Sequence record: MH571750.1
From: Escherichia phage vB_EcoM-Ro111lw
Length of the DNA: 64,000 bases
Reading direction: 5' to 3' (one strand)
The stretch's first letter is position 1, and each line of letters begins with the position of its first letter. The position numbers and the translations under genes are program-made. A model generated the notes under the pieces. It saw nothing but the letters and a program-made list of their open reading frames with translations, was not told the DNA's origin and ran no database searches. This document shows positions 28,654 to 56,743 of the stretch, one piece after another.

Positions 28654-29397
28654 ATGAGTAATATTATTGCATTTACTGGAAAGGCACGTTCTGGAAAAGA
28701 CACCTCATGTTCTATTGTTAAGAATATCTTAGAAGATGAGTATGGTTACAATGTTGCAGTAATGGCCTATGCAGACAATCTTAAGCTATCTGCGTCAAAG
28801 ATATTTGACTTGACATGGAATGACCTGTACGGTGAAACTAAAGAGACTCCACAGGTTTTTGATTTATCATACTCTGAACTGATGTCCAAAGTTACAGAAG
28901 CTATGGAGTTCACCTTCAGAGATGAACGTTACCATATGGACTTTAAGCTTATGTCGGAGTTAACCGGACGATTAATTATGGAGCTTAAGAAGGTTGCTAA
29001 ACCAACTCTATTGACACGTCTGGGATTTAGCAAGAAGTATAAATTCTCATCAAGACAAATTCAACAGATTTGGGGTACTGAAGTTATCCGTAAAGTTATG
29101 GGTGACAAGTTCTGGTCTAAAGACCTTGAAAAAAGAATGGTAAACTTCTTTGATGTTTGCTCACTTAGGAATCAAGAAGGTGTTGTTTTAATCAGTGACT
29201 TAAGGTTTGACTCTGAAGCTGAGTGGTTGAGCAGATTTGCACACCAAACTATTGAAGTAAAAAGAGACAATGTGGACAAGGTTTCATCACATGTTTCAGA
29301 AAATGGAATTTCTACCAAATATGCGCGTGACATTATCCATAATAATGGTACTCTTGAAGACCTTGAAAGCAAGCTAAGAGCTATCCTGAAAATTTAA
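28654..29397 (+). CDS. Deoxynucleoside monophosphate kinase (T4 gp1-like)
   Basis: N-terminal P-loop IIAFTGKARSGKDT matches the T4 dNMP kinase pattern (G.KRSGKDT). Confidence 0.55.
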   Translation: MSNIIAFTGKARSGKDTSCSIVKNILEDEYGYNVAVMAYADNLKLSASKIFDLTWNDLYGETKETPQVFDLSYSELMSKVTEAMEFTFRDERYHMDFKLMSELTGRLIMELKKVAKPTLLTRLGFSKKYKFSSRQIQQIWGTEVIRKVMGDKFWSKDLEKRMVNFFDVCSLRNQEGVVLISDLRFDSEAEWLSRFAHQTIEVKRDNVDKVSSHVSENGISTKYARDIIHNNGTLEDLESKLRAILKI

Positions 29398-34527: not shown

Positions 34528-34776
34528 ATGTTTAACAAAAGTAAAGCTGTGAGTCATGTAGCAAAAGTTGACAGCAAGATTGAAGAACTTGAGCGCATTC
34601 TTGCAAATGCCAGAGAGTCAATAATTAAAGAGGTTGAAGCTGTTGAATCTCAAATGCAGCACCTAATGCTTAAACGTAAAGAGCTACGTGAGCATCTGGA
34701 ATATATTGAAACACGAGAGCTAAAGGTTAACAGATATTTTAAGGAGTCCAAATGTTTAACTCAAGAGAATCAGTAA
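34528..34776 (+). CDS. Small coiled-coil protein (start moved to ATG)
   Basis: Track start TTG; ATG 15 nt downstream with GAGAGAG RBS. Confidence 0.45.
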   Translation: MFNKSKAVSHVAKVDSKIEELERILANARESIIKEVEAVESQMQHLMLKRKELREHLEYIETRELKVNRYFKESKCLTQENQ

Positions 34777-35507
34777 AAAACTGGAATCTTCGTTGTGGAA
34801 ACACTCAAAAGCAACCTTACAGTGATGAGTATTGGGAGTCTTTGAAATCTCAATCTCTATGTATGCTTGAAGAAGCAAAAGAGCTTGTAAAAGCAATTGA
34901 AGAGAAAGACCCCATTGAGACACTTGATGCTCAGGCAGATTTGCAATATGTCCTTGACGGTTTGATTTACCTGTCACAACATGACCATAATGGTGCTATG
35001 GAAGCTGTTTGCCATAATAATGACCTGAAGTATACAGACGACTATGAAGAAGCTTTAAAGCGTCTTGCAGATATTGAGAAGCGTACTGGTCAAGAGTGTA
35101 TCATCAGAATGTCAGTAGTTGATGGTAAAGAGTGGTATGCGATTGTTCGTGCAGCCGATGGGAAGATTATGAAGCAATCAAATCTCCCTAAAGTACAGCT
35201 TGGTGAATACATTGTAGAGCTTGAAAGCCAAGAACTTTTTGTGGTAGTATCTGAGACATGCGTTATCTGCAAAGGTATTGTATGTAGCTTAAAGGATTTG
35301 GGTGTAGATGGTTTTGTAGAAGTTAATCCAATTACCTCTAAAGCAGATAAAGATTTCTGTAAAGAGAATGGACTATGGATTGCAGATATTGTCTACTATG
35401 ATGGTGAGCAGTTCCATGTAACCTCATACCCGAAACTGAATTATGATGCTAATAACCTGAAGTGCTGGTTAAAAGGGGTTGGTTATAATGGATTCACAGA
35501 ACATTAA
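34752..35507 (+). CDS. MazG-like nucleotide pyrophosphohydrolase domain protein (putative)
   Basis: N-terminal all-alpha region EEAKELVKAIEEKD...DAQADLQYVLDGLIYL resembles the MazG/HisE E..E...D..Y pattern; AAGGAG RBS. Confidence 0.35.
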   Translation: MFNSRESVKNWNLRCGNTQKQPYSDEYWESLKSQSLCMLEEAKELVKAIEEKDPIETLDAQADLQYVLDGLIYLSQHDHNGAMEAVCHNNDLKYTDDYEEALKRLADIEKRTGQECIIRMSVVDGKEWYAIVRAADGKIMKQSNLPKVQLGEYIVELESQELFVVVSETCVICKGIVCSLKDLGVDGFVEVNPITSKADKDFCKENGLWIADIVYYDGEQFHVTSYPKLNYDANNLKCWLKGVGYNGFTEH

Positions 35508-40289: not shown

Positions 40290-42434
40290 ATGAACAAAGT
40301 ACAGATTATTAAAAAGAATGGCTCACTTGAAGAACCTGATATCAAAAAAGTTTTAGCGGCAGTAACAAAGTCAGCTAACAGGGTTGGATATAAAGAACTT
40401 CCACCAGATGTTACCCAAGCTCTTGAGTCAGCATTTATGAGGATTCTGGTAAAGTCCACTAAGCAGAATAATTTGCTCATTTCAGTAAATGATATTCACA
40501 GTATTGTTGAGGGTGCTTTGGCAGAAGCCAATCACGAGATTTATGAGTCTTACTCAACATATAGAAATTATCGTAAAGAGGTTGCTCAAAATTGGGATGA
40601 GCTTTACCAAAAGACTAGAGACACACTCTTCTTAGGTGACCGTGAAAATGCTAACTTTGACAGCAGTTTAATTTCTACAAAAGGTTCAATTATTCGTGGT
40701 TACCTGACTAAAGAAATCTTTAAACAGTACCATTTAACACCAGAGGAACTTGAAGCCATTGAAAAAGGGTTTATCTACATCCATGACTTAAGAGACCTGA
40801 TTTTTGGTGGTATCAACTGTTGCCTGTTTGACATTGGTAAAGTGCTGAAGGGTGGCTTTGAAATGTCTGGCATCGAATACTGTGAACCAAAGTCTGTGCT
40901 GTCAGCCTTACAGGTTATCGGTGATGTAGTTCTTTCAGCAACTGCACAGCAATTTGGTGGCTTTACTTTAGCAGAGATTGATAAGGTGCTTGTACCGTAT
41001 GCTAAGAAGTCTCTACGTTATCATGCTGAGAAAGCAGCATCTTACGGTATTCCTAAAGAACATTACCATAATTATGTCATGGAGCAGCTACAGATTGAAT
41101 TAACTCAAGGTTTCCAGTCACTTGAAATGAAGCTAAACACTGTACCTTGCAGCCGTGGTGATTTCGCATTCACAACTTTAACATTTGGTTTACTTGACTC
41201 AGATATGACTAATGAAGACAACCGATTACAATACATGATTGCAAGTACTCTCCTAGATGTTCGTATGAATGGACAAGGGAAGAGCAAGAAGCCTGTTGTA
41301 TTTCCTAAACTGGTTTATATTTATGACCAGAAGAGACACGATGAGAATATCTGTCAAGGACACCTGTACAGTAAAGCCATTGAGTGTTGCTCTAAAGCAA
41401 TGTATCCAGATTTCTTAAGTGTATCTGGTCATGGTGCTGTAGCAGAGGCTTTTGAGCGTTCTGGTAAGGTTATTTCACCGATGGGTTGTAGAGCCTTCTT
41501 ATCTCCATATTTTAACGAGAATGGAGAAGAGTTCTATGTTGGTCGTGCTAATATTGGTGCTGTATCTTTGAACTTACCAATGATTTATCAGTACGCCAAA
41601 GAGGATGGTTTAGATTTCTGGAAAGAGCTTGATAAGTACCTAGAGATGATTCGCAGCTTCCACAAGAAACGCTACGAAATGATTGCTAATATGCCAGCAA
41701 GTTCTAACCCTCTTGCATTCACACAAGGTGGTCTGTACAAAGGAACTAAGAAACCTACTGACAAGGTTGGTTGGGATATTGTGAAGTCCTTCACAGCTTC
41801 TTTTGGGGTTACTGCGCTTGATGAGCTATCTGTTCTTGCTGAAGGTAAACGACTTCATGAAGTTGGAAGCTGTAGTTTTGCATACGATGTTCTGGCATAC
41901 ATCAACATGAAAACTGAAGAGTTTAAAAATGAAGATGGCTTCTTATATGCCGTCTATGGTACTCCAGCAGAATCACTTTGCGGAACTCAGCTAAAACAGT
42001 TCAGAGATATGTTTGGCGTTATCAAAGGTGTTTCTGATAAGGAATACTTTACAAACAGTTTCCATATGAATGTTGCAGCAGACATCTCACCATTTGAGAA
42101 GCAGGACTTAGAAGAGCCATTCTTCCATATCTGTAGAGGTGGGAGAATCCAGTATGTCAGGGTAGCTAACCCAGAAAACTTAACAGCACTTAAAAGTTGT
42201 ATCACAAGAGGGATGTTGAAAGGTTTCTATCAGGGGCTTAACTTTGACTTAGCAATCTGTGAACATTGTGGTAACAGACCAAAGGCTGATGTTGAAGAAT
42301 GCGAGGTTTGCCATTCACATGATATCTCTGTGATTAACAGGGTGTGTGGGTATCTTGGATGGACTAAGATTAAAGGTGAATCCCGAATGAACGATGCAAA
42401 AATCGCTGAGATTCGTGATAGAGTATCTATGTAA
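40290..42434 (+). CDS. nrdD: Anaerobic ribonucleoside-triphosphate reductase (class III)
   Basis: N-terminal ATP-cone, C-terminal glycyl-radical motif RVCGYLG preceded by a Cys-rich zinc site (CEHCG...CEVC); 714 aa. Confidence 0.85.
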   Translation: MNKVQIIKKNGSLEEPDIKKVLAAVTKSANRVGYKELPPDVTQALESAFMRILVKSTKQNNLLISVNDIHSIVEGALAEANHEIYESYSTYRNYRKEVAQNWDELYQKTRDTLFLGDRENANFDSSLISTKGSIIRGYLTKEIFKQYHLTPEELEAIEKGFIYIHDLRDLIFGGINCCLFDIGKVLKGGFEMSGIEYCEPKSVLSALQVIGDVVLSATAQQFGGFTLAEIDKVLVPYAKKSLRYHAEKAASYGIPKEHYHNYVMEQLQIELTQGFQSLEMKLNTVPCSRGDFAFTTLTFGLLDSDMTNEDNRLQYMIASTLLDVRMNGQGKSKKPVVFPKLVYIYDQKRHDENICQGHLYSKAIECCSKAMYPDFLSVSGHGAVAEAFERSGKVISPMGCRAFLSPYFNENGEEFYVGRANIGAVSLNLPMIYQYAKEDGLDFWKELDKYLEMIRSFHKKRYEMIANMPASSNPLAFTQGGLYKGTKKPTDKVGWDIVKSFTASFGVTALDELSVLAEGKRLHEVGSCSFAYDVLAYINMKTEEFKNEDGFLYAVYGTPAESLCGTQLKQFRDMFGVIKGVSDKEYFTNSFHMNVAADISPFEKQDLEEPFFHICRGGRIQYVRVANPENLTALKSCITRGMLKGFYQGLNFDLAICEHCGNRPKADVEECEVCHSHDISVINRVCGYLGWTKIKGESRMNDAKIAEIRDRVSM

Positions 42435-44292: not shown

Positions 44293-44613
44293 ATGAGCAA
44301 AGTTTATAACACTCGCAAATTACAGATTTTCGTACTGTGCCAGTTTATGGCTAAAGAATACAACTTCTACTATTGCGGCACAGGTTTTATTAGTGATGAT
44401 GATGGCTCATACCTTCCATTCAAAGAAGCTGTGAAGCTCTTTAATGAAGAGGAAAGCTCTAAGAAAGATATTGAAAAGGTGAAACTGACCTACAGCAAGA
44501 AAGATAAGAAGATTATCTGCCTAGATAACTTTGTAAAAGTTACTGGAGAAGCAAAAGAGTTTATGAATGAGAGTGAGATTTCATTCACAAGCATCTTGAA
44601 AGTAGCTCAGTAA
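44293..44613 (+). CDS. Hypothetical protein
   Basis: 106 aa, ATG start. Confidence 0.5.
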   Translation: MSKVYNTRKLQIFVLCQFMAKEYNFYYCGTGFISDDDGSYLPFKEAVKLFNEEESSKKDIEKVKLTYSKKDKKIICLDNFVKVTGEAKEFMNESEISFTSILKVAQ

Positions 44614-44626
44614 ACAGATACTATAG

Positions 44627-44650
44627 GGGAACTGTAAAGGTTCCCTTTTT
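44627..44650 (+). terminator. Rho-independent terminator
   Basis: GGGAAC-tgtaaag-GTTCCC followed by TTTTT. Confidence 0.6.
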
Positions 44651-44664
44651 ATTTTGGAGATGAT

Positions 44665-45180
44665 ATGTATCTGTCAAACCTGAAACGTTCGGCTGCAATG
44701 TCAGTTCTAAGACTCAGCTTTGATGAGCGTCAAGAATTTATAGACTCCCACAAATATGACCCTTCAAATTCTAATCACATGGTTCTTTGGAATCGTGAGA
44801 GTACTCGTGAAAGAGCATTATTCCGATATTACCCACACTACACCATAGACAACCTGTATGAATGTTTTGTTGTGAAGAACACCATTACAGTACTCAATAA
44901 ACTTTGCAGATACACAGGTAGTCAATCTTTCACATTAGGCCACCACAAACCTGTTACAAAGGGTGGTGAGCATCACTGTGCAAACTGGTTTATCCAGACT
45001 AAACTTGATAATCAGAAGCAAGGTGATAGTCTTCTAAGCATCCCTAAGATGACCTATGAAGAGCAAGAGAAATATATCAAAAATAATATGCCAGATGTGC
45101 TTGACAACAACTATACAGATTTGGCAATATCTCTCCTGTTGAAGTTCGAGACAGTTTATAGGGCAACTTACAATGGCTAA
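44665..45180 (+). CDS. HNH endonuclease
   Basis: LGHHKPVTKGGEHHCANWFIQTKLDNQKQG resembles an HNH core (H-H...N...H/C). Confidence 0.55.
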   Translation: MYLSNLKRSAAMSVLRLSFDERQEFIDSHKYDPSNSNHMVLWNRESTRERALFRYYPHYTIDNLYECFVVKNTITVLNKLCRYTGSQSFTLGHHKPVTKGGEHHCANWFIQTKLDNQKQGDSLLSIPKMTYEEQEKYIKNNMPDVLDNNYTDLAISLLLKFETVYRATYNG

Positions 45181-45451
45181 AGAAAAGTGGGAGATTTTAC
45201 CATTAGTCAGTGAAGGTGGTAATGGTTGTGAAATGTACATGATACGTGGTCATGTTCCAGAACCAATTGCACTTGAGATGGTAAACAACTTTACAGATGG
45301 CTCTTACAAAGACTTAGGAGAGCCAACTATAAAGCATCAATGGGTAAAACCTGTACCAGACAGCACAGGTAACTGTAGTGTACTTTACCACGTTGTAGAC
45401 CCTGTAAAATGCAAATCTGCAATGGCAGTAACAAACGTAACTTTTGATTGA
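45173..45451 (+). CDS. Hypothetical protein
   Basis: 92 aa, overlapping start. Confidence 0.45.
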   Translation: MAKEKWEILPLVSEGGNGCEMYMIRGHVPEPIALEMVNNFTDGSYKDLGEPTIKHQWVKPVPDSTGNCSVLYHVVDPVKCKSAMAVTNVTFD

Positions 45452-45462
45452 GAGACAAAACT

Positions 45463-46344
45463 ATGAAAACATCTATCCGTGTTACAGTTCATTCACCAAC
45501 TAAAGGGACTCATGAAGAAGAGTTTAACATCGTCCAATTCCCTTCTGGTGAGATTGGTGGACACTTTTCGCCAGAGTTTGTTGATTTTACTGCTTATGCA
45601 GCATCATCTATCAACAATGTGATTATGATTGTAAAAGGTTATGATAAGGACACATTGTTTGCTGTGGCACTTGCTAAAGAAGCAATTGATGATTTAGTAC
45701 CTCATAAGTTTGCTATGAAGACTGCTATCTTTTACTATTTGCCAAATGCACGTTACGACCGTCACATGTTTAAAGGTGATGCAGCAGCTTTGAAAGTGTT
45801 TGCACAACAGGTTAATGCAATGGGTTTTGATGCAGTCTGTGCAGTTGACCCTCACAGCTATGTACCAGATAACCTGTTTAACTGCTTCCAGAGTATTCCT
45901 CAAAAGGAAATTGCAGTCCACTATGCAAATGACCCACTGATTGATTACTTAGTAGCCCCAGATGCAGGTGCTGCTAAGAAGATTGCAGAGACTGCTAAAG
46001 AGGTGGATAAACCATACATCACAATGTCTAAAGTGCGTAACCTTAAGACTGGTGAAATTACTGGTATGCGAATCCTTGATGATGTTGATTTGACAGATAA
46101 AACCGTCATGATTCTGGATGATATCTGTGATGGTGGTCGAACCTTCATAGAAGCAGCGAAACATCTTCGTGAAGCAGGTGCAAAACGTGTGGAACTTTAT
46201 GTAACACATGGTATCTTCTCTAAAGATGTTGAAAACCTTCTTGACAATGGTATCGACCATATTTACACTACAAACTCTTTAGGCGAAGCTAAAGACCGTG
46301 GCTTAACACATTACAGTCAAGTTACTGTAGCAAACCTTGATTGA
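45463..46344 (+). CDS. Ribose-phosphate pyrophosphokinase family protein (PRPP synthetase-like; could be an ADP-ribose pyrophosphate synthetase-type homolog)
   Basis: PRPP-binding loop VMILDDICDGGRTF; about 290 aa; start moved from TTG to ATG (MKTSIRV) with GAGAGAC RBS. Confidence 0.7.
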   Translation: MKTSIRVTVHSPTKGTHEEEFNIVQFPSGEIGGHFSPEFVDFTAYAASSINNVIMIVKGYDKDTLFAVALAKEAIDDLVPHKFAMKTAIFYYLPNARYDRHMFKGDAAALKVFAQQVNAMGFDAVCAVDPHSYVPDNLFNCFQSIPQKEIAVHYANDPLIDYLVAPDAGAAKKIAETAKEVDKPYITMSKVRNLKTGEITGMRILDDVDLTDKTVMILDDICDGGRTFIEAAKHLREAGAKRVELYVTHGIFSKDVENLLDNGIDHIYTTNSLGEAKDRGLTHYSQVTVANLD

Positions 46345-46389
46345 AAGTTTATAAGGACTTAAAAGCCCCATTTTGAGAGAGATTAAAAG

Positions 46390-48171
46390 ATGACTAAATC
46401 ACTTTATGCAGTACCAGCAGGTTTAAACGCAGATGCTTACAAATCTGGTCATGTTTACCAGTACCCTAGTGCAACAGAGTACTTGATGTTCAACCTGACA
46501 CCACGTAGTGACAAATGGTTTAACAGCCCCTTAGCAATTGATGGTGTAGTAGCTTTTGGTATTCAACGTTTCGTTAAAGATTACTTGATAGACCACTGGA
46601 ACGCCACTTTCTTTGAACGTGATAAAAAAGAAGCCATTGATGAAATCTTAGAAGTCATGAATGGTGTTCTGGGTAAAGATGCTATCGGTCGAGAGCATTG
46701 GGAAGCACTTCACGACTTAGGTTATCTACCAGTTGAAGTATACGCTGTAGAAGAAGGTACAGTTGTCCCTATGCGTGTCCCAATGATTGTCTTCCAGAAC
46801 ACTGTTTCAGGTTTCCATTGGGTAGCGGGGTATCTGGAAGATGCTTTCTCTGCTGAGATTTGGAAGGCTTGTACCATTGCAACTATTGCATTGCATTATA
46901 AACGCATCTGTAAGAAGTGGGCTGACCTTACTTGCGACAACGACTTACATTTATCTTATCAGTGCCATGACTTTGCTATGCGTGGTATGTCCGGCTTTAC
47001 TGATGACGCATTTAACGCTGTAGGCCACTTAACCAGCTTTAAAGGAACTGATAGCTTCCCTGCTGTGTATACGGCTAAACGAATCTATGGACAGTCTTAC
47101 CCAATCTCTGATATTGGTAGTTCTGTACCAGCCACTGAACACTCTGTGATGTGTGCAAACATTGCTTGGGAAGGTGGTAATGAGTTGATTGAAGAAGAAA
47201 GACGCTTTAAGGGTGAGTTACAAACCTTCCGTCGTTTCTTAACAGAAACTTACCCAACTGGTATTGCAAGTGTTGTTTCAGACACTTATAACTTCTGGAG
47301 AACTGTGTCAGAAATTTTACCAGCACTTCGTAAAGAAATTATGGAACGTGATGGCAAACTGGTAATTCGTCCTGACTCTGGAGACCCTGTACATATTGTC
47401 ACAGGTTATAAAGCAATCCACTTAGAATGTGCTAAGAAGGCTTATTACGAGCACCTAAGCAAGCTGGAAGCCAGTGACACAATGTTGAATGCTGTTCTGA
47501 ACATGAAGCTTGAAAACATCAACTATGGTATTGCTGGATGGCTACTGTCAGAAGGCTACGAAATGGTTGTTGACAGAGAAGACTTTGAAGTTGCTGATAC
47601 AGTGATGTTGAAGAACGCTTATATGGTTGGTTCTGCAAACGTTGTAACACGCCCTGTAGCAGAGATTGATGGAGCTATTAAGACCTTGTATAACATCTTT
47701 GGAGGAACTATTAACTCTAAAGGTTTTAAGGTACTGGATGAGCACATTGGCCTTATCTATGGCGACTCTATCACGTTGGAACGTGCAAACGAAATCCTGA
47801 AGCGTCTGTATGAAATGGGGTTTGCAAGCTCTAACGTGGTGTTTGGTGTAGGCTCTTACACTTACCAGTACATGACTCGTGACACCTTTGCATTTGCTGT
47901 CAAAGCAACTCTTGCAAGCATTGGTGGCAAAGAGATTATGCTTGCAAAAGACCCTAAAACAGATAGTGGTGTTAAGAAATCTGCCTTTGGTGGTGTAGCA
48001 CCTATGTGGGATGGTGAGAATTTGAAAGCTGTAGATGGCTATGGATTCCAGAGCTTTGCAGATGCACTTGAACATCCAGCTTGTGCTTTACGTTTAGTCT
48101 TTAGCGACTCTGAGCAGTACGGTTACACAACTCTTGGTGATATTCGAAATAATATTGACAAGCAGCTTTAA
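46390..48171 (+). CDS. Nicotinamide phosphoribosyltransferase family protein (NadV/NAMPT-like)
   Basis: 593 aa; adjacent to the PRS-like gene; N-terminal region and size consistent with NAMPT family; family assignment moderately confident, substrate not determinable. Confidence 0.55.
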   Translation: MTKSLYAVPAGLNADAYKSGHVYQYPSATEYLMFNLTPRSDKWFNSPLAIDGVVAFGIQRFVKDYLIDHWNATFFERDKKEAIDEILEVMNGVLGKDAIGREHWEALHDLGYLPVEVYAVEEGTVVPMRVPMIVFQNTVSGFHWVAGYLEDAFSAEIWKACTIATIALHYKRICKKWADLTCDNDLHLSYQCHDFAMRGMSGFTDDAFNAVGHLTSFKGTDSFPAVYTAKRIYGQSYPISDIGSSVPATEHSVMCANIAWEGGNELIEEERRFKGELQTFRRFLTETYPTGIASVVSDTYNFWRTVSEILPALRKEIMERDGKLVIRPDSGDPVHIVTGYKAIHLECAKKAYYEHLSKLEASDTMLNAVLNMKLENINYGIAGWLLSEGYEMVVDREDFEVADTVMLKNAYMVGSANVVTRPVAEIDGAIKTLYNIFGGTINSKGFKVLDEHIGLIYGDSITLERANEILKRLYEMGFASSNVVFGVGSYTYQYMTRDTFAFAVKATLASIGGKEIMLAKDPKTDSGVKKSAFGGVAPMWDGENLKAVDGYGFQSFADALEHPACALRLVFSDSEQYGYTTLGDIRNNIDKQL

Positions 48172-48185
48172 AAGTATATGATAAG

Positions 48186-48207
48186 AGGCTCCTACGGGAG
48201 CCTTTTT
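48186..48207 (+). terminator. Rho-independent terminator
   Basis: AGGCTCC-tacg-GGAGCCT followed by TTTTT. Confidence 0.6.
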
Positions 48208-48224
48208 AATTTCTGGAGAAGATT

Positions 48225-55957: not shown

Positions 55958-56743
55958 ATGGGTATTGTAAAAATCATCAATGGTGATATCTTTGCTGCAT
56001 TTGATAAAGGTAAGTTTGACGTCATCGGTCACGGTTGCAACTGTATGAACTTAATGGGTGCAGGTATCGCTGACAAGATTTCTAAACTTTACCCAAAAGC
56101 ATATGAGACTGATACAGAAGTTTATCTGTATGCAGGTGGAATAGGCCACAAGCCCTGTGAGAATTTACTAGGCAATTTCTCTGTAGCACGTTTAAAACAA
56201 GGCCGTATAGCTAACCTTTACACTCAGCTTAAGACTGGTAAAGATGCCCGATACAGTGCTTTAGAGTCATCTTTGAAACAGCTTAACAGATACTGTGAAG
56301 TCAATCAGTTGAAGAAAGTCGGGTTACCTATGATTGGTGCAGGTATCGGTGGGCTAGACCCTCAAGCCGTCACAGTTATCATTAATCAGGTGATGAAGAG
56401 TGTAGATGTTTATCTGTATGTCTACGAAGGAGAGATGTACCACAAGTTACGCTCAGGTTGGAAGAACTACTGTGAGCCAGAATACTTTGCAGGTGTAGTA
56501 ACGTTCACAGATGATGCAGTTACCCTCTTCAGACGAAGAAAAGGTAAGATACATCAAAGTAACCCTCCGGTTGAGAAGATGTCTCTAAGTAACGCTCTAG
56601 TTACCCACCTGTCGAAGGGCAATCACAGGATAGCCGTAACATTTGGCAGTGATGCAGATACATATATCTATGCAAGAACTGATGAGGATATCGAGACGGT
56701 CTTCTCTTCATCGGAAGTTACCTTCTTAGACGCAAAGAACTAA
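55958..56743 (+). CDS. Macro-domain (ADP-ribose-binding/processing) protein with about 100-aa C-terminal extension
   Basis: N-terminus VKIINGDIF...DVIGHGCNCMNLMGAGIADKI parallels the macro-domain pattern (GDIT...D.IVNAAN...GGGV..AI); RBS GGGAGAG. Confidence 0.5.
   Translation: MGIVKIINGDIFAAFDKGKFDVIGHGCNCMNLMGAGIADKISKLYPKAYETDTEVYLYAGGIGHKPCENLLGNFSVARLKQGRIANLYTQLKTGKDARYSALESSLKQLNRYCEVNQLKKVGLPMIGAGIGGLDPQAVTVIINQVMKSVDVYLYVYEGEMYHKLRSGWKNYCEPEYFAGVVTFTDDAVTLFRRRKGKIHQSNPPVEKMSLSNALVTHLSKGNHRIAVTFGSDADTYIYARTDEDIETVFSSSEVTFLDAKN

What the first reader, a model, noticed from the sequence alone, without database searches (positions are those of the whole stretch)
45463..48171. Adjacent PRPP-synthetase-like and NAMPT-like genes: candidate phage NAD+ salvage or reconstitution module
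A ribose-phosphate pyrophosphokinase homolog (PRPP-binding loop DDICDGGRT) sits directly upstream of a 593-aa nicotinamide phosphoribosyltransferase-family gene. Such pairs are classically read as NAD salvage. Recent work has shown that phage PRS and NAMPT homologs can instead rebuild NAD+ from ADP-ribose and nicotinamide, countering NAD-depleting defences. Sequence alone cannot tell the two chemistries apart.
Basis: partly seen in the sequence, partly recalled or inferred. Interest (0 to 1): 0.55.

Follow-up and report, generated by a model that had tools for sequence, protein, structure and literature searches.

The report
Known phage NAD+ rebuilding operon (NARP1)
These two adjacent genes are the already-described NARP1 counter-defence operon of FelixO1-like phages, which rebuilds NAD+ from ADP-ribose and nicotinamide after bacterial immune systems destroy it. 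The finding is real, but it is not new.

Summary
A 293-aa PRPP-synthetase-like gene lies at 45463-46344 and a 593-aa NAMPT-like gene at 46390-48171, on the same strand and 45 nt apart.

The window is a Felixounavirus genome. The pair is the positional ortholog of genes 79-80 of phage Bas63 (JohannRWettstein), the operon in which NARP1 was discovered. The NAMPT-like protein is 98% identical to Bas63 Namat. The PRS-like protein is 80% identical to Bas63 Adps.

- **Namat signature:** the protein carries the published adenine-clamp motif (GSYTYQYMTRD, plus K42-W43 in the variable loop). Xanthomonas Nampt, the one bona fide Nampt aligned here, has no aromatic residue at either clamp position.
- **Adps features:** the PRS-like protein keeps the Adps catalytic residues and lacks the C-terminal PRPS filament module. 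It fails every NCBIfam ribose-phosphate diphosphokinase equivalog cut-off.

The most likely mechanism is ADPR + ATP -> ADPR-PP (Adps), then ADPR-PP + nicotinamide -> NAD+ (Namat). This would counter SIR2-HerA, Thoeris, DSR1/2 and similar NAD+-depleting defences. No enzyme from this phage has been assayed.

Side observations:
- The Adps N-terminal domain is a divergent allele.
- Namat has a ~77-aa insertion specific to the subfamily.
- The upstream gene is orthologous to a reported anti-retron gene.
- An Adpp-like Macro-domain gene lies 7.8 kb downstream.

Novelty: already known. Interest: low.

The parts
45463..46344 (+). adps: ADP-ribose pyrophosphokinase (PRPP-synthetase-like), 293 aa
   Evidence: ORF; Pfam and PHROG matches. 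It is 79.5% identical to Bas63 gp79, same length and position, and 100% identical to phage heid. Identity is 32% to the biochemically and structurally characterised ICP1 Adps and 24% to E. coli Prs. Catalytic residues R97, H131, D167, K190, D219, D220 and D223 align with ICP1 R87, H121, D161, K185, D212, D213 and D216.
46117..46143 (+). Adps PP loop DDICDGGRT (residues 219-227)
   Evidence: Located. It aligns with ICP1 Adps D212-S220 (DDICDGAAS), the loop that binds the ATP-derived pyrophosphate. E. coli Prs has DDMIDTGGT at this position.
46030..46032 (+). Adps catalytic lysine K190
   Evidence: Aligns with ICP1 Adps K185. The K185A mutant abolishes ADPR-PP formation. The nucleotide coordinates were derived by hand from the residue number.
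46390..48171 (+). namat: nicotinamide ADP-ribose transferase (NAMPT-like), 593 aa
   Evidence: ORF. It is 98% identical to Bas63 gp80 (582/593, no gaps). The best solved relative is SpbetaL1 Namat 9W5W/9W5X at 431 bits, against 176 bits for Xanthomonas Nampt and about 144 bits for mammalian NAMPT.
46507..46521 (+). Namat selectivity-clamp loop (SCL), S40-D41-K42-W43-F44
   Evidence: Aligns with SpbetaL1 T38-S39-R40-V41. The published rule says that when the third residue is Lys or Tyr, the fourth residue stacks on adenine, as modelled for Bas63. Coordinates.
47851..47883 (+). Namat selectivity-clamp helix motif (SCH), G488-S-Y-T-Y-Q-Y-M-T-R-D498
   Evidence: Fits the published Namat-only consensus GS-X-phi-X-phi-X-phi-TRD, with aromatic residues at motif positions 3 (Y490) and 7 (Y494), equivalent to SpbetaL1 F392 and Y396. 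Position 8 is Met here, where the paper gives mainly Asn or Val. Xanthomonas Nampt has GGALLQKVDRD at this site.
47419..47667 (+). Insertion of about 77 aa in Namat (residues about 344-426) relative to SpbetaL1 Namat and Nampt
   Evidence: Query residues 344-426 fall opposite 6 residues of 9W5X. The insertion is present in Felixounavirus, Suspvirus and Kolesnikvirus, shorter in Pakpunavirus and absent in ICP1. Its function is unknown. The nucleotide coordinates were derived by hand from the residue numbers.
48183..48206 (+). Terminator-like hairpin directly after namat
   Evidence: 10-bp stem with 5 GC pairs plus a T run. Folding energy is -16.6 kcal/mol, z = -3.3.
44625..44647 (+). Terminator-like hairpin that bounds the upstream side of a tightly packed four-ORF block (44665-48171)
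   Evidence: Found. Folding energy is -14.3 kcal/mol, z = -2.5. Sequence shown. No convincing promoter was identified for the block.
44665..45180 (+). 171-aa ORF in the same block; ortholog of Bas63 gp77
   Evidence: 95.9% identical to bas63_0077. PHROG 3500, with a weak HNH hit at E 3e-4. It is 52% identical at the same position in an Erwinia Kolesnikvirus. Bas63 gp77 is reported to counter the Ec67 retron. It is not known to be part of NARP1.
45173..45451 (+). 92-aa ORF between the gp77-like gene and adps; ortholog of Bas63 gp78; function unknown
   Evidence: 97.8% identical to bas63_0078. PHROG 4726, no Pfam or NCBIfam hit. The equal-sized ORF in the Erwinia phage has no detectable similarity.
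55958..56743 (+). Candidate accessory gene in trans (not shown to belong): Macro-domain protein, 261 aa, Adpp-like N-terminal domain plus a C-terminal extension of about 100 aa
   Evidence: Pfam Macro at 1.1e-7, 32.3 bits against a cut-off of 22. It is 27% identical to Vibrio phage Gary Adpp (E 1e-13) and 30% identical to PAK_P1-type Adpp (E 5e-22) over the full Adpp length. All 13 invariant columns are shared with six NARP1-operon Adpp proteins. It is 97.3% identical to bas63_0095.

Best explanation
The two genes are the NARP1 (NAD+ reconstitution pathway 1) operon of a Felixounavirus.

When an NAD+-depleting defence cleaves NAD+ into ADP-ribose and nicotinamide, two enzymes act in turn. Such defences include SIR2-HerA/Nezha, type I Thoeris, DSR1, DSR2 and SEFIR.
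1. Adps (45463-46344) transfers the beta,gamma-pyrophosphate of ATP onto the terminal ribose of ADP-ribose, giving ADPR-PP.
2. Namat (46390-48171) uses Nampt-type chemistry to join ADPR-PP to nicotinamide. This regenerates NAD+ directly, without needing host NadR or PncC.

Shown here: orthology to the type operon, conserved catalytic and selectivity residues, and operon anatomy.

Shown by others for Bas63: the deletion phenotype, ADPR-PP detected in infected cells, and independence from host pncC and nadR.

Shown by others for SpbetaL1 and ICP1 homologs: in vitro chemistry and structures.

Inferred: that the proteins of this particular phage, including its divergent Adps N-terminal allele, do the same.
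For: **Genomic identity**
- The window is a Felixounavirus. It is collinear with Bas63 (MZ501086) at 92-95% nucleotide identity from NrdD to rIIB.

**Orthology**
- The window genes have the same lengths (293 and 593 aa), spacing and neighbours as bas63_0079/0080. Namat is 98% identical and Adps 80% identical.

**Published evidence for Bas63 g79-80**
- Deleting them sensitises the phage to SIR2-HerA and deepens the NAD+ loss.
- ADPR-PP (m/z 720.010) appears only with wild-type phage plus the defence system.
- An independent screen found a 1e4-1e6 drop in plating on Sir2-HerA for delta-g79 or delta-g80, rescued by complementation.

**Namat residues**
- All SpbetaL1 Namat ligand-contact residues map to identical or conservative residues. 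These are D15, Y17, F195, R198, D221, A248, H251, R327, D329, G458-D459-S460, G488-S489-Y490, Y494 and T496-R497-D498.
- The Namat-only motif GS-X-phi-X-phi-X-phi-TRD is present, and the variable loop has K42-W43, as described for Bas63.
- Ranking of solved relatives: SpbetaL1 Namat 431 bits, Xanthomonas Nampt 176 bits, mammalian NAMPT about 144 bits.

**Adps features**
- The residues shown by mutagenesis to matter in ICP1 Adps are conserved.
- The C-terminal alpha11-alpha12 PRPS module is missing.
- Scores fall far below every NCBIfam Prs equivalog cut-off, for example 105.8 against 296. Only the broad subfamily model passes.

**No alternative pathway partner**
- No NMNAT, Nudix, PnuC or NadR family appears in the Pfam scans of 97 window ORFs. 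Only the top 25 families per scan are displayed.
Against: - No enzyme from this phage or from Bas63 has been assayed in vitro. Bas63 Adps did not purify well, so the biochemistry used SpbetaL1 and ICP1 homologs that are only about 30-45% identical.
- The Adps N-terminal domain here is only 69% identical to the Bas63 allele.
- Two aromatic residues that hold the ADPR adenine in ICP1 Adps (F18, F92) align with H17 and M102 here. This is also true in Bas63, and the N-terminal alignment is unreliable.
- ICP1 F223, one of two Phe residues that cap the adenine of the donor ATP, aligns with E230 here.
- SpbetaL1 Namat still makes NMN from PRPP in vitro at about half the rate of human Nampt, so some classical activity is not excluded.
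- Curated libraries (Pfam, PHROGs, NCBIfam) still name the pair as PRS and NAMPT or NAPRT.
Confidence: 0.9

Rival explanations
1. Classical NAD+ salvage. The PRS-like enzyme makes PRPP from ribose-5-phosphate. The NAMPT-like enzyme makes NMN from PRPP and nicotinamide. Host NadR or PncC completes NAD+.
For: - This is what the Pfam, PHROG, NCBIfam and GenBank annotations imply.
- The Nampt catalytic core, including the catalytic His (H251 here), is intact.
- SpbetaL1 Namat makes NMN from PRPP in vitro.
Against: - In Bas63 the effect does not need host pncC or nadR, and ADPR-PP accumulates in vivo.
- No measurable product was obtained when SpbetaL1 Adps was tested as a Prs. The figure legend says it was incubated with ribose-5-phosphate plus ATP; the body text says PRPP plus ATP.
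- The adenine clamp motif is present here. The one bona fide Nampt aligned here (Xanthomonas) has no aromatic residue at the two clamp positions, and the paper reports the motif absent from Nampt.
- The PRS-like protein fails all Prs equivalog cut-offs and lacks the PRPS C-terminal module.
- No NMNAT is encoded in the window.
Confidence: 0.05
2. A nucleotide-supply module. The PRS-like enzyme boosts PRPP for phage nucleotide synthesis and the pair is unrelated to defence. This fits its position beside the ribonucleotide reductase, thymidylate synthase and DHFR genes.
For: The neighbourhood is rich in nucleotide-metabolism genes: NrdA, NrdB, NrdD, NrdG, thymidylate synthase, DHFR and a dNMP kinase.
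Against: - The orthologs in Bas63 are dispensable without a defence system and become needed only on Sir2-HerA, Ec86 retron or hhe hosts.
- The Adps-specific features are as listed above.
- The block is flanked by genes reported as counter-defence genes: gp77 upstream and rIIA/rIIB downstream.
Confidence: 0.03

Closest known systems
NARP1 operon of Escherichia phage JohannRWettstein (Bas63), genes 79-80 (Osterman et al., bioRxiv 10.1101/2024.02.11.579819)
   Same: - Same phage genus, genomic position, gene order, gene lengths and 45-nt spacer.
- Namat is 98% identical and Adps 80% identical.
- Flanking genes gp76-78 and gp82-84 are 94-100% identical.
   Different: - The first 165 or so residues of Adps are a different allele: 69% amino-acid identity and 61-84% nucleotide identity, against 94-99% in the flanks.
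- Bas63 has an extra 114-aa gene (gp81) right after namat that this window lacks.
SpbetaL1 Namat (PDB 9W5W/9W5X) and SpbetaL1 Adps, the biochemically characterised NARP1 enzymes
   Same: - The catalytic core and both elements of the adenine selectivity clamp are conserved.
- The two-gene adps-namat order is the same.
   Different: - The window Namat is about 100 aa longer. It has an insertion of about 77 aa at residues 344-426 and one of about 15 aa at 258-272.
- The stacking residue in the variable loop is W43 after K42, not R40.
- F392 is Y490, S190 is A196 and A362 is S460.
Vibrio phage ICP1 Adps (structures in NAR 2026, PMC13586617)
   Same: - The two-domain PRPS-like organisation is implied by full-length alignment.
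- The catalytic Lys, the DD-x-x-D acidic residues, Arg and His are conserved.
- The PP loop begins DDICDG, F follows the loop, and the alpha11-alpha12 module is lost.
   Different: - Only 32% identical.
- The PP loop is GGRT rather than GAAS.
- F18, F92 and F223 are not conserved in the alignment.
Canonical Prs plus Nampt/NadV (E. coli Prs; Xanthomonas and human NAMPT; NARP2 of KVP40-like phages)
   Same: Same folds, and the same phosphoribosyl-transfer and pyrophosphoryl-transfer chemistry.
   Different: - 24% identical to E. coli Prs, and below all Prs equivalog cut-offs.
- About 27-29% identical to the NAMPT-like proteins of several T4-like phages listed in the tblastn (Aeromonas phage 25 nadV, Cronobacter S13, Escherichia Lw1).
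- Xanthomonas Nampt has no aromatic residue at the two clamp positions.
- No partner NMNAT/Nudix gene is present.
NARP1-AP (Adps-Adpp-Namat, Vibrio phage Gary; bioRxiv 10.64898/2026.01.28.702374)
   Same: The genome encodes a protein whose Macro domain belongs to the same subfamily as Adpp.
   Different: - The Macro gene is 7.8 kb away, not in the operon.
- It carries an extra C-terminal domain.
- No Escherichia or Salmonella phage is listed in that paper's table of NARP1-associated Macro genes.

Membership tests
Namat (nicotinamide ADP-ribose transferase, NARP1 step 2) | Nampt-like catalytic core: nicotinamide-stacking Phe and Tyr, Asp, the Arg306 equivalent and the catalytic His | tested here: met
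   F195, Y17, D221, R327, D329 and H251 align with SpbetaL1 F189, Y15, D215, R306, D308 and H245.
Namat (nicotinamide ADP-ribose transferase, NARP1 step 2) | [quoted passage not shown] | tested here: met
   G488-S-Y-T-Y-Q-Y-M-T-R-D498 has Y490 and Y494. Position 8 is Met, where the paper gives mainly Asn or Val. Xanthomonas Nampt has GGALLQKVDRD.
Namat (nicotinamide ADP-ribose transferase, NARP1 step 2) | SCL loop supplies an adenine-stacking residue: third residue Arg, or Lys/Tyr followed by a stacking fourth residue | tested here: met
   S40-D41-K42-W43, identical to Bas63, for which the paper models the fourth residue as the stacker. The stacking itself is not testable here.
Namat (nicotinamide ADP-ribose transferase, NARP1 step 2) | Prefers ADPR-PP over PRPP and forms NAD+ directly | not testable with these tools
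   Needs an enzyme assay. Shown for SpbetaL1 Namat only.
Adps (ADP-ribose pyrophosphokinase, NARP1 step 1) | PRPS-like catalytic residues: the beta-hairpin Lys, the acidic DD-x-x-D loop, and the Arg87, His121 and Asp161 equivalents | tested here: met
   K190, D219, D220, D223, R97, H131 and D167.
Adps (ADP-ribose pyrophosphokinase, NARP1 step 1) | Loss of the PRPS C-terminal alpha11-alpha12 filament module, called a defining signature of the family | tested here: met
   293 aa against 315 aa for E. coli Prs. The alignment shows a gap across the Prs segment PNVRTLTLSGMLAEAI and its surroundings, as in ICP1 Adps.
Adps (ADP-ribose pyrophosphokinase, NARP1 step 1) | Remodelled PP loop conserved among Adps homologs | tested here: inconclusive
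   DDICDG and the following Phe are shared with ICP1 and differ from Prs DDMIDT. The rest of the loop differs: GRT against AAS. The paper's family alignment itself was not available.
Adps (ADP-ribose pyrophosphokinase, NARP1 step 1) | Aromatic and cationic contacts to the ADPR adenine (ICP1 F18', R87, F92) | tested here: inconclusive
   R97 is conserved. F18 and F92 align with H17 and M102 in a poorly aligned N-terminal region, in both the window and Bas63.
Adps (ADP-ribose pyrophosphokinase, NARP1 step 1) | Uses ADPR, not ribose-5-phosphate, as acceptor | not testable with these tools
   Shown in vitro for SpbetaL1 and ICP1 Adps, and by in vivo ADPR-PP detection for Bas63.
NARP1 operon | adps immediately followed by namat on one strand in a phage genome | tested here: met
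   45-nt spacer, same strand, with a terminator-like hairpin after namat.
NARP1 operon | Protects the phage from NAD+-depleting defence | not testable with these tools
   Shown for the Bas63 orthologs by two groups.
Canonical ribose-phosphate diphosphokinase (Prs) | Reaches a curated equivalog score | tested here: not met
   Best equivalog is NF002095 at 105.8 bits against a cut-off of 296. Only the subfamily model TIGR01251 passes, at 127.1 against 113.
NARP2 (Nampt plus bifunctional NMNAT/Nudix) | An NMNAT (cytidylyltransferase-like) or Nudix partner gene | tested here: not met
   None appears among the families listed for 97 window ORFs or among the 10 neighbours. The window covers about 64 of about 87 kb. 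The Bas63 annotation of 37.1-87.1 kb, the only part fetched, shows none either.
NARP1-AP / RyDEP-extended NARP1 | A Macro-domain Adpp or RyR-domain glycosidase gene inside or adjacent to the operon | tested here: not met
   No Macro or RyR hit in the five ORFs on either side at E <= 0.1. An Adpp-like Macro gene exists, but 7.8 kb downstream.

The most novel reading that the evidence does not exclude
Felixounaviruses may run a split version of the extended pathway NARP1-AP.

The Macro-domain protein at 55958-56743 belongs to the Adpp subfamily and is fused to an uncharacterised C-terminal domain of about 100 aa. It might dephosphorylate ADPR-1''-phosphate made by aRES-type defences and feed ADPR to the distant adps-namat operon. 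That would extend counter-defence to aRES, although the published operon-based census does not count these phages.

A second reading not excluded by the evidence is that the two deeply divergent Adps N-terminal alleles within one genus reflect an arms race acting on Adps itself.
Probability: 0.25. Interest if true: 0.45.

Novelty: already known. Interest (0 to 1): 0.15.

Why it matters
NARP1 is a major phage counter-defence. It is reported in at least 4% of phages and lets them escape many NAD+-depleting immune systems. That matters for choosing and engineering phages for therapy, and FelixO1-like phages are widely used against Salmonella and E. coli.

For this window the value lies in correct annotation. 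Public records, Pfam, PHROGs and NCBIfam still label these genes PRS and NAMPT or NAPRT. Orthology and the clamp motif allow them to be called adps and namat.

The side observations are modest leads, not discoveries. They are the variable Adps N-domain, the subfamily-specific Namat insertion, the neighbouring anti-retron gene and the distal Adpp-like Macro gene.

Tried and rejected
- **Finding Bas63.** I guessed the accession. MZ501111, 077, 080, 083, 084 and 085 were other BASEL phages. The accessions run alphabetically by phage name, and MZ501086 is Bas63.
- **NARP3.** I considered it and rejected it. NARP3 is a PnuC-like transporter plus a NadR-like enzyme and is unrelated to these genes. 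PDB 9KE8/9KEO, 347 bits to Namat, could not be attributed to a paper.
- **Accessory genes.** I looked for Macro, RyR, NMNAT and Nudix genes next to the operon and found none.
- **Whole-window Pfam scans.** Running these through a dummy alignment shows only the top 25 families. A second subset scan and a targeted scan were needed to locate the Macro gene.
- **Structure prediction.** I ran no further search on the insertion, since it cannot change the verdict.
- **92-aa ORF.** It has no detectable similarity to the equal-sized ORF at the same position in the Erwinia phage, so there is no cross-genus support for a conserved role.
- **Promoter.** No convincing promoter was found for the four-ORF block. 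The best sigma-70-like match upstream (44596-44624) runs straight into the upstream hairpin.
Full report
**Observation**

- The PRS-like gene runs from ATG 45463 to 46344 (293 aa).
- The NAMPT-like gene runs from 46390 to 48171 (593 aa).
- Both are on the + strand, 45 nt apart.

The quoted loop DDICDGGRT is residues 219-227 of the first protein.

| Protein | Pfam | PHROG |
|---|---|---|
| PRS-like | PF00156 1.3e-11; PF14572 4.4e-10 | 619, 2.7e-98 |
| NAMPT-like | PF04095 6.8e-35; PF18127 2.4e-5 | 448, 3.3e-202 |

**What the window is**

The region is 96-98% identical in DNA to dozens of Felixounavirus genomes, which are FelixO1-like myoviruses of E. coli, Salmonella and Shigella. 232 phage records hold at least 80% of it.

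The rest of the window carries capsid and tail genes, Nrd genes, thymidylate synthase, DHFR, a family-A DNA polymerase and rIIA.

**Link to the literature**

NARP1 was discovered in the BASEL phage Bas63 (JohannRWettstein), which is a Felixounavirus. Its Pfam-annotated "Prs" (gene 79) and "Nampt" (gene 80) form a two-gene operon. The published findings for Bas63 are:
- Deleting the operon made the phage sensitive to SIR2-HerA and deepened NAD+ loss.
- ADPR-pyrophosphate (m/z 720.010) appeared only with wild-type phage plus the defence system.

Purified SpbetaL1 homologs showed the chemistry: ADPR + ATP -> ADPR-PP (Adps), then ADPR-PP + nicotinamide -> NAD+ (Namat). The pathway overcomes Thoeris, DSR1, DSR2, SIR2-HerA and SEFIR.

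An independent gene-essentiality screen of Bas63 found that delta-g79 or delta-g80 plated 1e4-1e6 lower on Sir2-HerA, and complementation restored plating. Weaker effects were seen on the Ec86 retron and hhe.

**Orthology**

I fetched Bas63 (MZ501086). Genes bas63_0079 and bas63_0080 have the same lengths as the window genes (293 and 593 aa) and the same 45-nt spacer. They also share the same neighbours, from NrdG upstream to rIIA/rIIB downstream.
- Namat is 582/593 (98%) identical, with no gaps.
- Adps is 233/293 (80%) identical, with no gaps.
- The surrounding proteins are 94-100% identical.

**Can sequence discriminate the two chemistries?**

Yes, on both proteins.

For Namat, the crystal-structure paper on SpbetaL1 Namat (PDB 9W5W/9W5X) defines a Nampt-like catalytic core plus an adenine "selectivity clamp". 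The clamp has two parts:
- a variable loop that supplies a third stacking residue.

The window protein's best solved relative is that Namat, at 431 bits. Xanthomonas Nampt scores 176 bits and mammalian NAMPT about 144 bits. Mapping through the alignment gives the table below.

| SpbetaL1 Namat | Window Namat |
|---|---|
| D13 / Y15 | D15 / Y17 |
| R40 | K42, followed by W43 |
| F189 / R192 | F195 / R198 |
| D215 | D221 |
| A242 | A248 |
| Catalytic His | H251 |
| R306 / D308 | R327 / D329 |
| G360-D361-A362 | G458-D459-S460 |
| GSF392...Y396.TRD400 | G488-S-Y490-T-Y-Q-Y494-M-T-R-D498 |

Xanthomonas Nampt reads GGALLQKVDRD at the clamp helix, with no aromatic residue at either position. The K42-W43 arrangement is exactly the case the authors describe for Bas63.

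For Adps, the ICP1 Adps structures identify the following features:
- Arg87, His121, Asp161, Asp212/213 and Asp216, plus the essential Lys185;
- a remodelled PP loop;
- loss of the PRPS alpha11-alpha12 filament module, which the authors call a family signature.

The window protein has R97, H131, D167, D219/D220, D223 and K190. Its PP loop begins DDICDG, where Prs has DDMIDT. The C-terminal module is absent.

It fails every NCBIfam ribose-phosphate diphosphokinase equivalog cut-off, with a best score of 105.8 bits against 296. It passes only the broad subfamily model.

Some features are not cleanly conserved. ICP1 F18 and F92, the adenine contacts for ADPR, and F223, which caps the adenine of the donor ATP, align with H17, M102 and E230. 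The same is true in Bas63, and the N-terminal alignment is poor at 32% identity.

**Anatomy of the locus**

adps and namat are the last two genes of a tightly packed block of four ORFs (44665-48171). Start and stop codons in the block overlap or nearly touch.

Terminator-like hairpins bound the block at 44625-44647 and 48183-48206. I could not identify a convincing promoter.

The first ORF (171 aa, PHROG 3500) has a weak HNH-like hit. It is 96% identical to Bas63 gp77, which the essentiality screen reports as a counter to the Ec67 retron. That paper calls it GIY-YIG; my scan hints at HNH.

The same four-ORF layout occurs in Suspvirus and Kolesnikvirus. The 171-aa protein is 52% identical there, but the 92-aa ORF is not detectably conserved.

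**Differences from the type operon**

- *Adps N-terminal allele.* The first 500 nt or so of adps are only 61-84% identical to Bas63, while the flanks are 94-99%. The N-terminal domain is 69% identical in protein. That is about as far as from the Suspvirus ortholog at 71.5%, whereas the C-terminal part is 93% identical. Among phage records, 155 carry an Adps at least 90% identical to this one and about 97 fall at 60-90%, the band that includes the Bas63 type. Two allele classes therefore seem to circulate, and this one is the commoner.
- *Missing gp81.* Bas63 gp81, a 114-aa gene after namat, is absent here.
- *Namat insertions.* Relative to the crystallised SpbetaL1 Namat, the Felixounavirus Namat has insertions of about 77 aa (residues 344-426) and about 15 aa (258-272). 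The large one is shared across Ounavirinae, shorter in Pakpunavirus and absent in ICP1. The structural paper does not mention an insertion in its text.

**Accessory genes**

Published extensions of NARP1 place one of two genes inside the operon:
- a Macro-domain ADPR-1''-phosphate phosphatase (Adpp), giving NARP1-AP, which counters aRES;
- a RyR-domain cADPR glycosidase (RyDEP).

None of the ten neighbouring ORFs has such a domain. No NMNAT/Nudix (NARP2) or PnuC/NadR (NARP3) family appears in the window-wide scans.

The window does encode a Macro-domain protein 7.8 kb downstream, at 55958-56743 (261 aa; Pfam Macro 32.3 bits against a cut-off of 22).
- Its N-terminal 155 residues or so align end to end with the assayed Vibrio phage Gary Adpp (27% identity, E 1e-13). 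They also align with the PAK_P1-type operon-linked Adpp (30% identity, E 5e-22).
- It shares all 13 invariant columns with six operon-linked Adpp proteins.
- In a Pakpunavirus the homolog sits two genes after namat.
- No Escherichia or Salmonella phage is listed in the paper's table of NARP1-associated Macro genes.

This family is also common in T4-like phages (I did not check those genomes for NARP1). It also gives a sub-threshold DarG hit. A link to NARP1 is therefore only a hypothesis.

**Verdict**

It is also the published type case: the NARP1 operon of a Felixounavirus.

Confidence that it works as NARP1 is about 0.9. The remaining doubt comes from the lack of any in vitro assay on Felixounavirus proteins and from the divergent Adps N-domain. 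Novelty is "already known" and interest is low. The side observations are recorded as leads.

Noticed in passing
window 55958-56743 (+): A 261-aa Macro-domain protein, ortholog of bas63_0095 'putative phosphatase'. Its N-terminal domain belongs to the same subfamily as the NARP1-associated ADPR-1''-phosphate phosphatase Adpp. It carries an extra C-terminal domain of about 100 aa and lies 7.8 kb from adps-namat. The published NARP1-AP census does not count it.
   Followed up: partly
window 45463-45960 (5' part of adps): A sharp mosaic segment. Nucleotide identity to Bas63 is 61-84% here, against 94-99% on both sides. The Adps N-terminal domain is as divergent between two Felixounaviruses (69%) as between genera. 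Two allele classes circulate in the genus.
   Followed up: partly
window 44665-45180 (+): A 171-aa ORF at the head of the same terminator-bounded block as adps-namat. It is 96% identical to Bas63 gp77, which a PhageMaP screen reports as a counter to the Ec67 retron. That paper calls it GIY-YIG, whereas my PHROG scan gives only a weak HNH-like hit. It is conserved at this position across Ounavirinae.
   Followed up: partly
window 47419-47667 (Namat residues about 344-426) and 47161-47205 (residues 258-272): Insertions of about 77 aa and about 15 aa relative to the crystallised SpbetaL1 Namat and to Nampt. The large one is shared by Felixounavirus, Suspvirus and Kolesnikvirus, shorter in Pakpunavirus and absent in ICP1. 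Function unknown.
   Followed up: partly
window about 48207-48224, compared with L008 18408-18752: Bas63 has a 114-aa gene (gp81) between namat and the next gene. This window lacks it, so there is an indel immediately after the NARP1 terminator.
   Followed up: no
window 28654-29397 (+): A deoxynucleotide monophosphate kinase gene (Pfam DNMK, 3.5e-23). A phage dNMP kinase is the reported trigger of the NAD+-depleting Kongming defence, which NARP1 neutralises in a reconstituted system. This phage may therefore carry both a trigger and its remedy.
   Followed up: no
window 40290-42434 (+), compared with L008 9530-12416: NrdD is a single uninterrupted 714-aa ORF here. The Bas63 NrdD is annotated as two joined pieces with a homing-endonuclease gene inside.
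   Followed up: no
GenBank GU169904.1 (H28): A record named Staphylococcus phage SA1 holds a Namat 98.3% identical to this Felixounavirus protein. Some 'Campylobacter phage' records also match the region. These look like mislabelled or chimeric database entries.
   Followed up: no
window 34752-35507 (+): A 251-aa ORF with a MazG/PRA-PH-like pyrophosphohydrolase domain (PF01503, 6.6e-6). It is another nucleotide-handling gene of unknown role.
   Followed up: no
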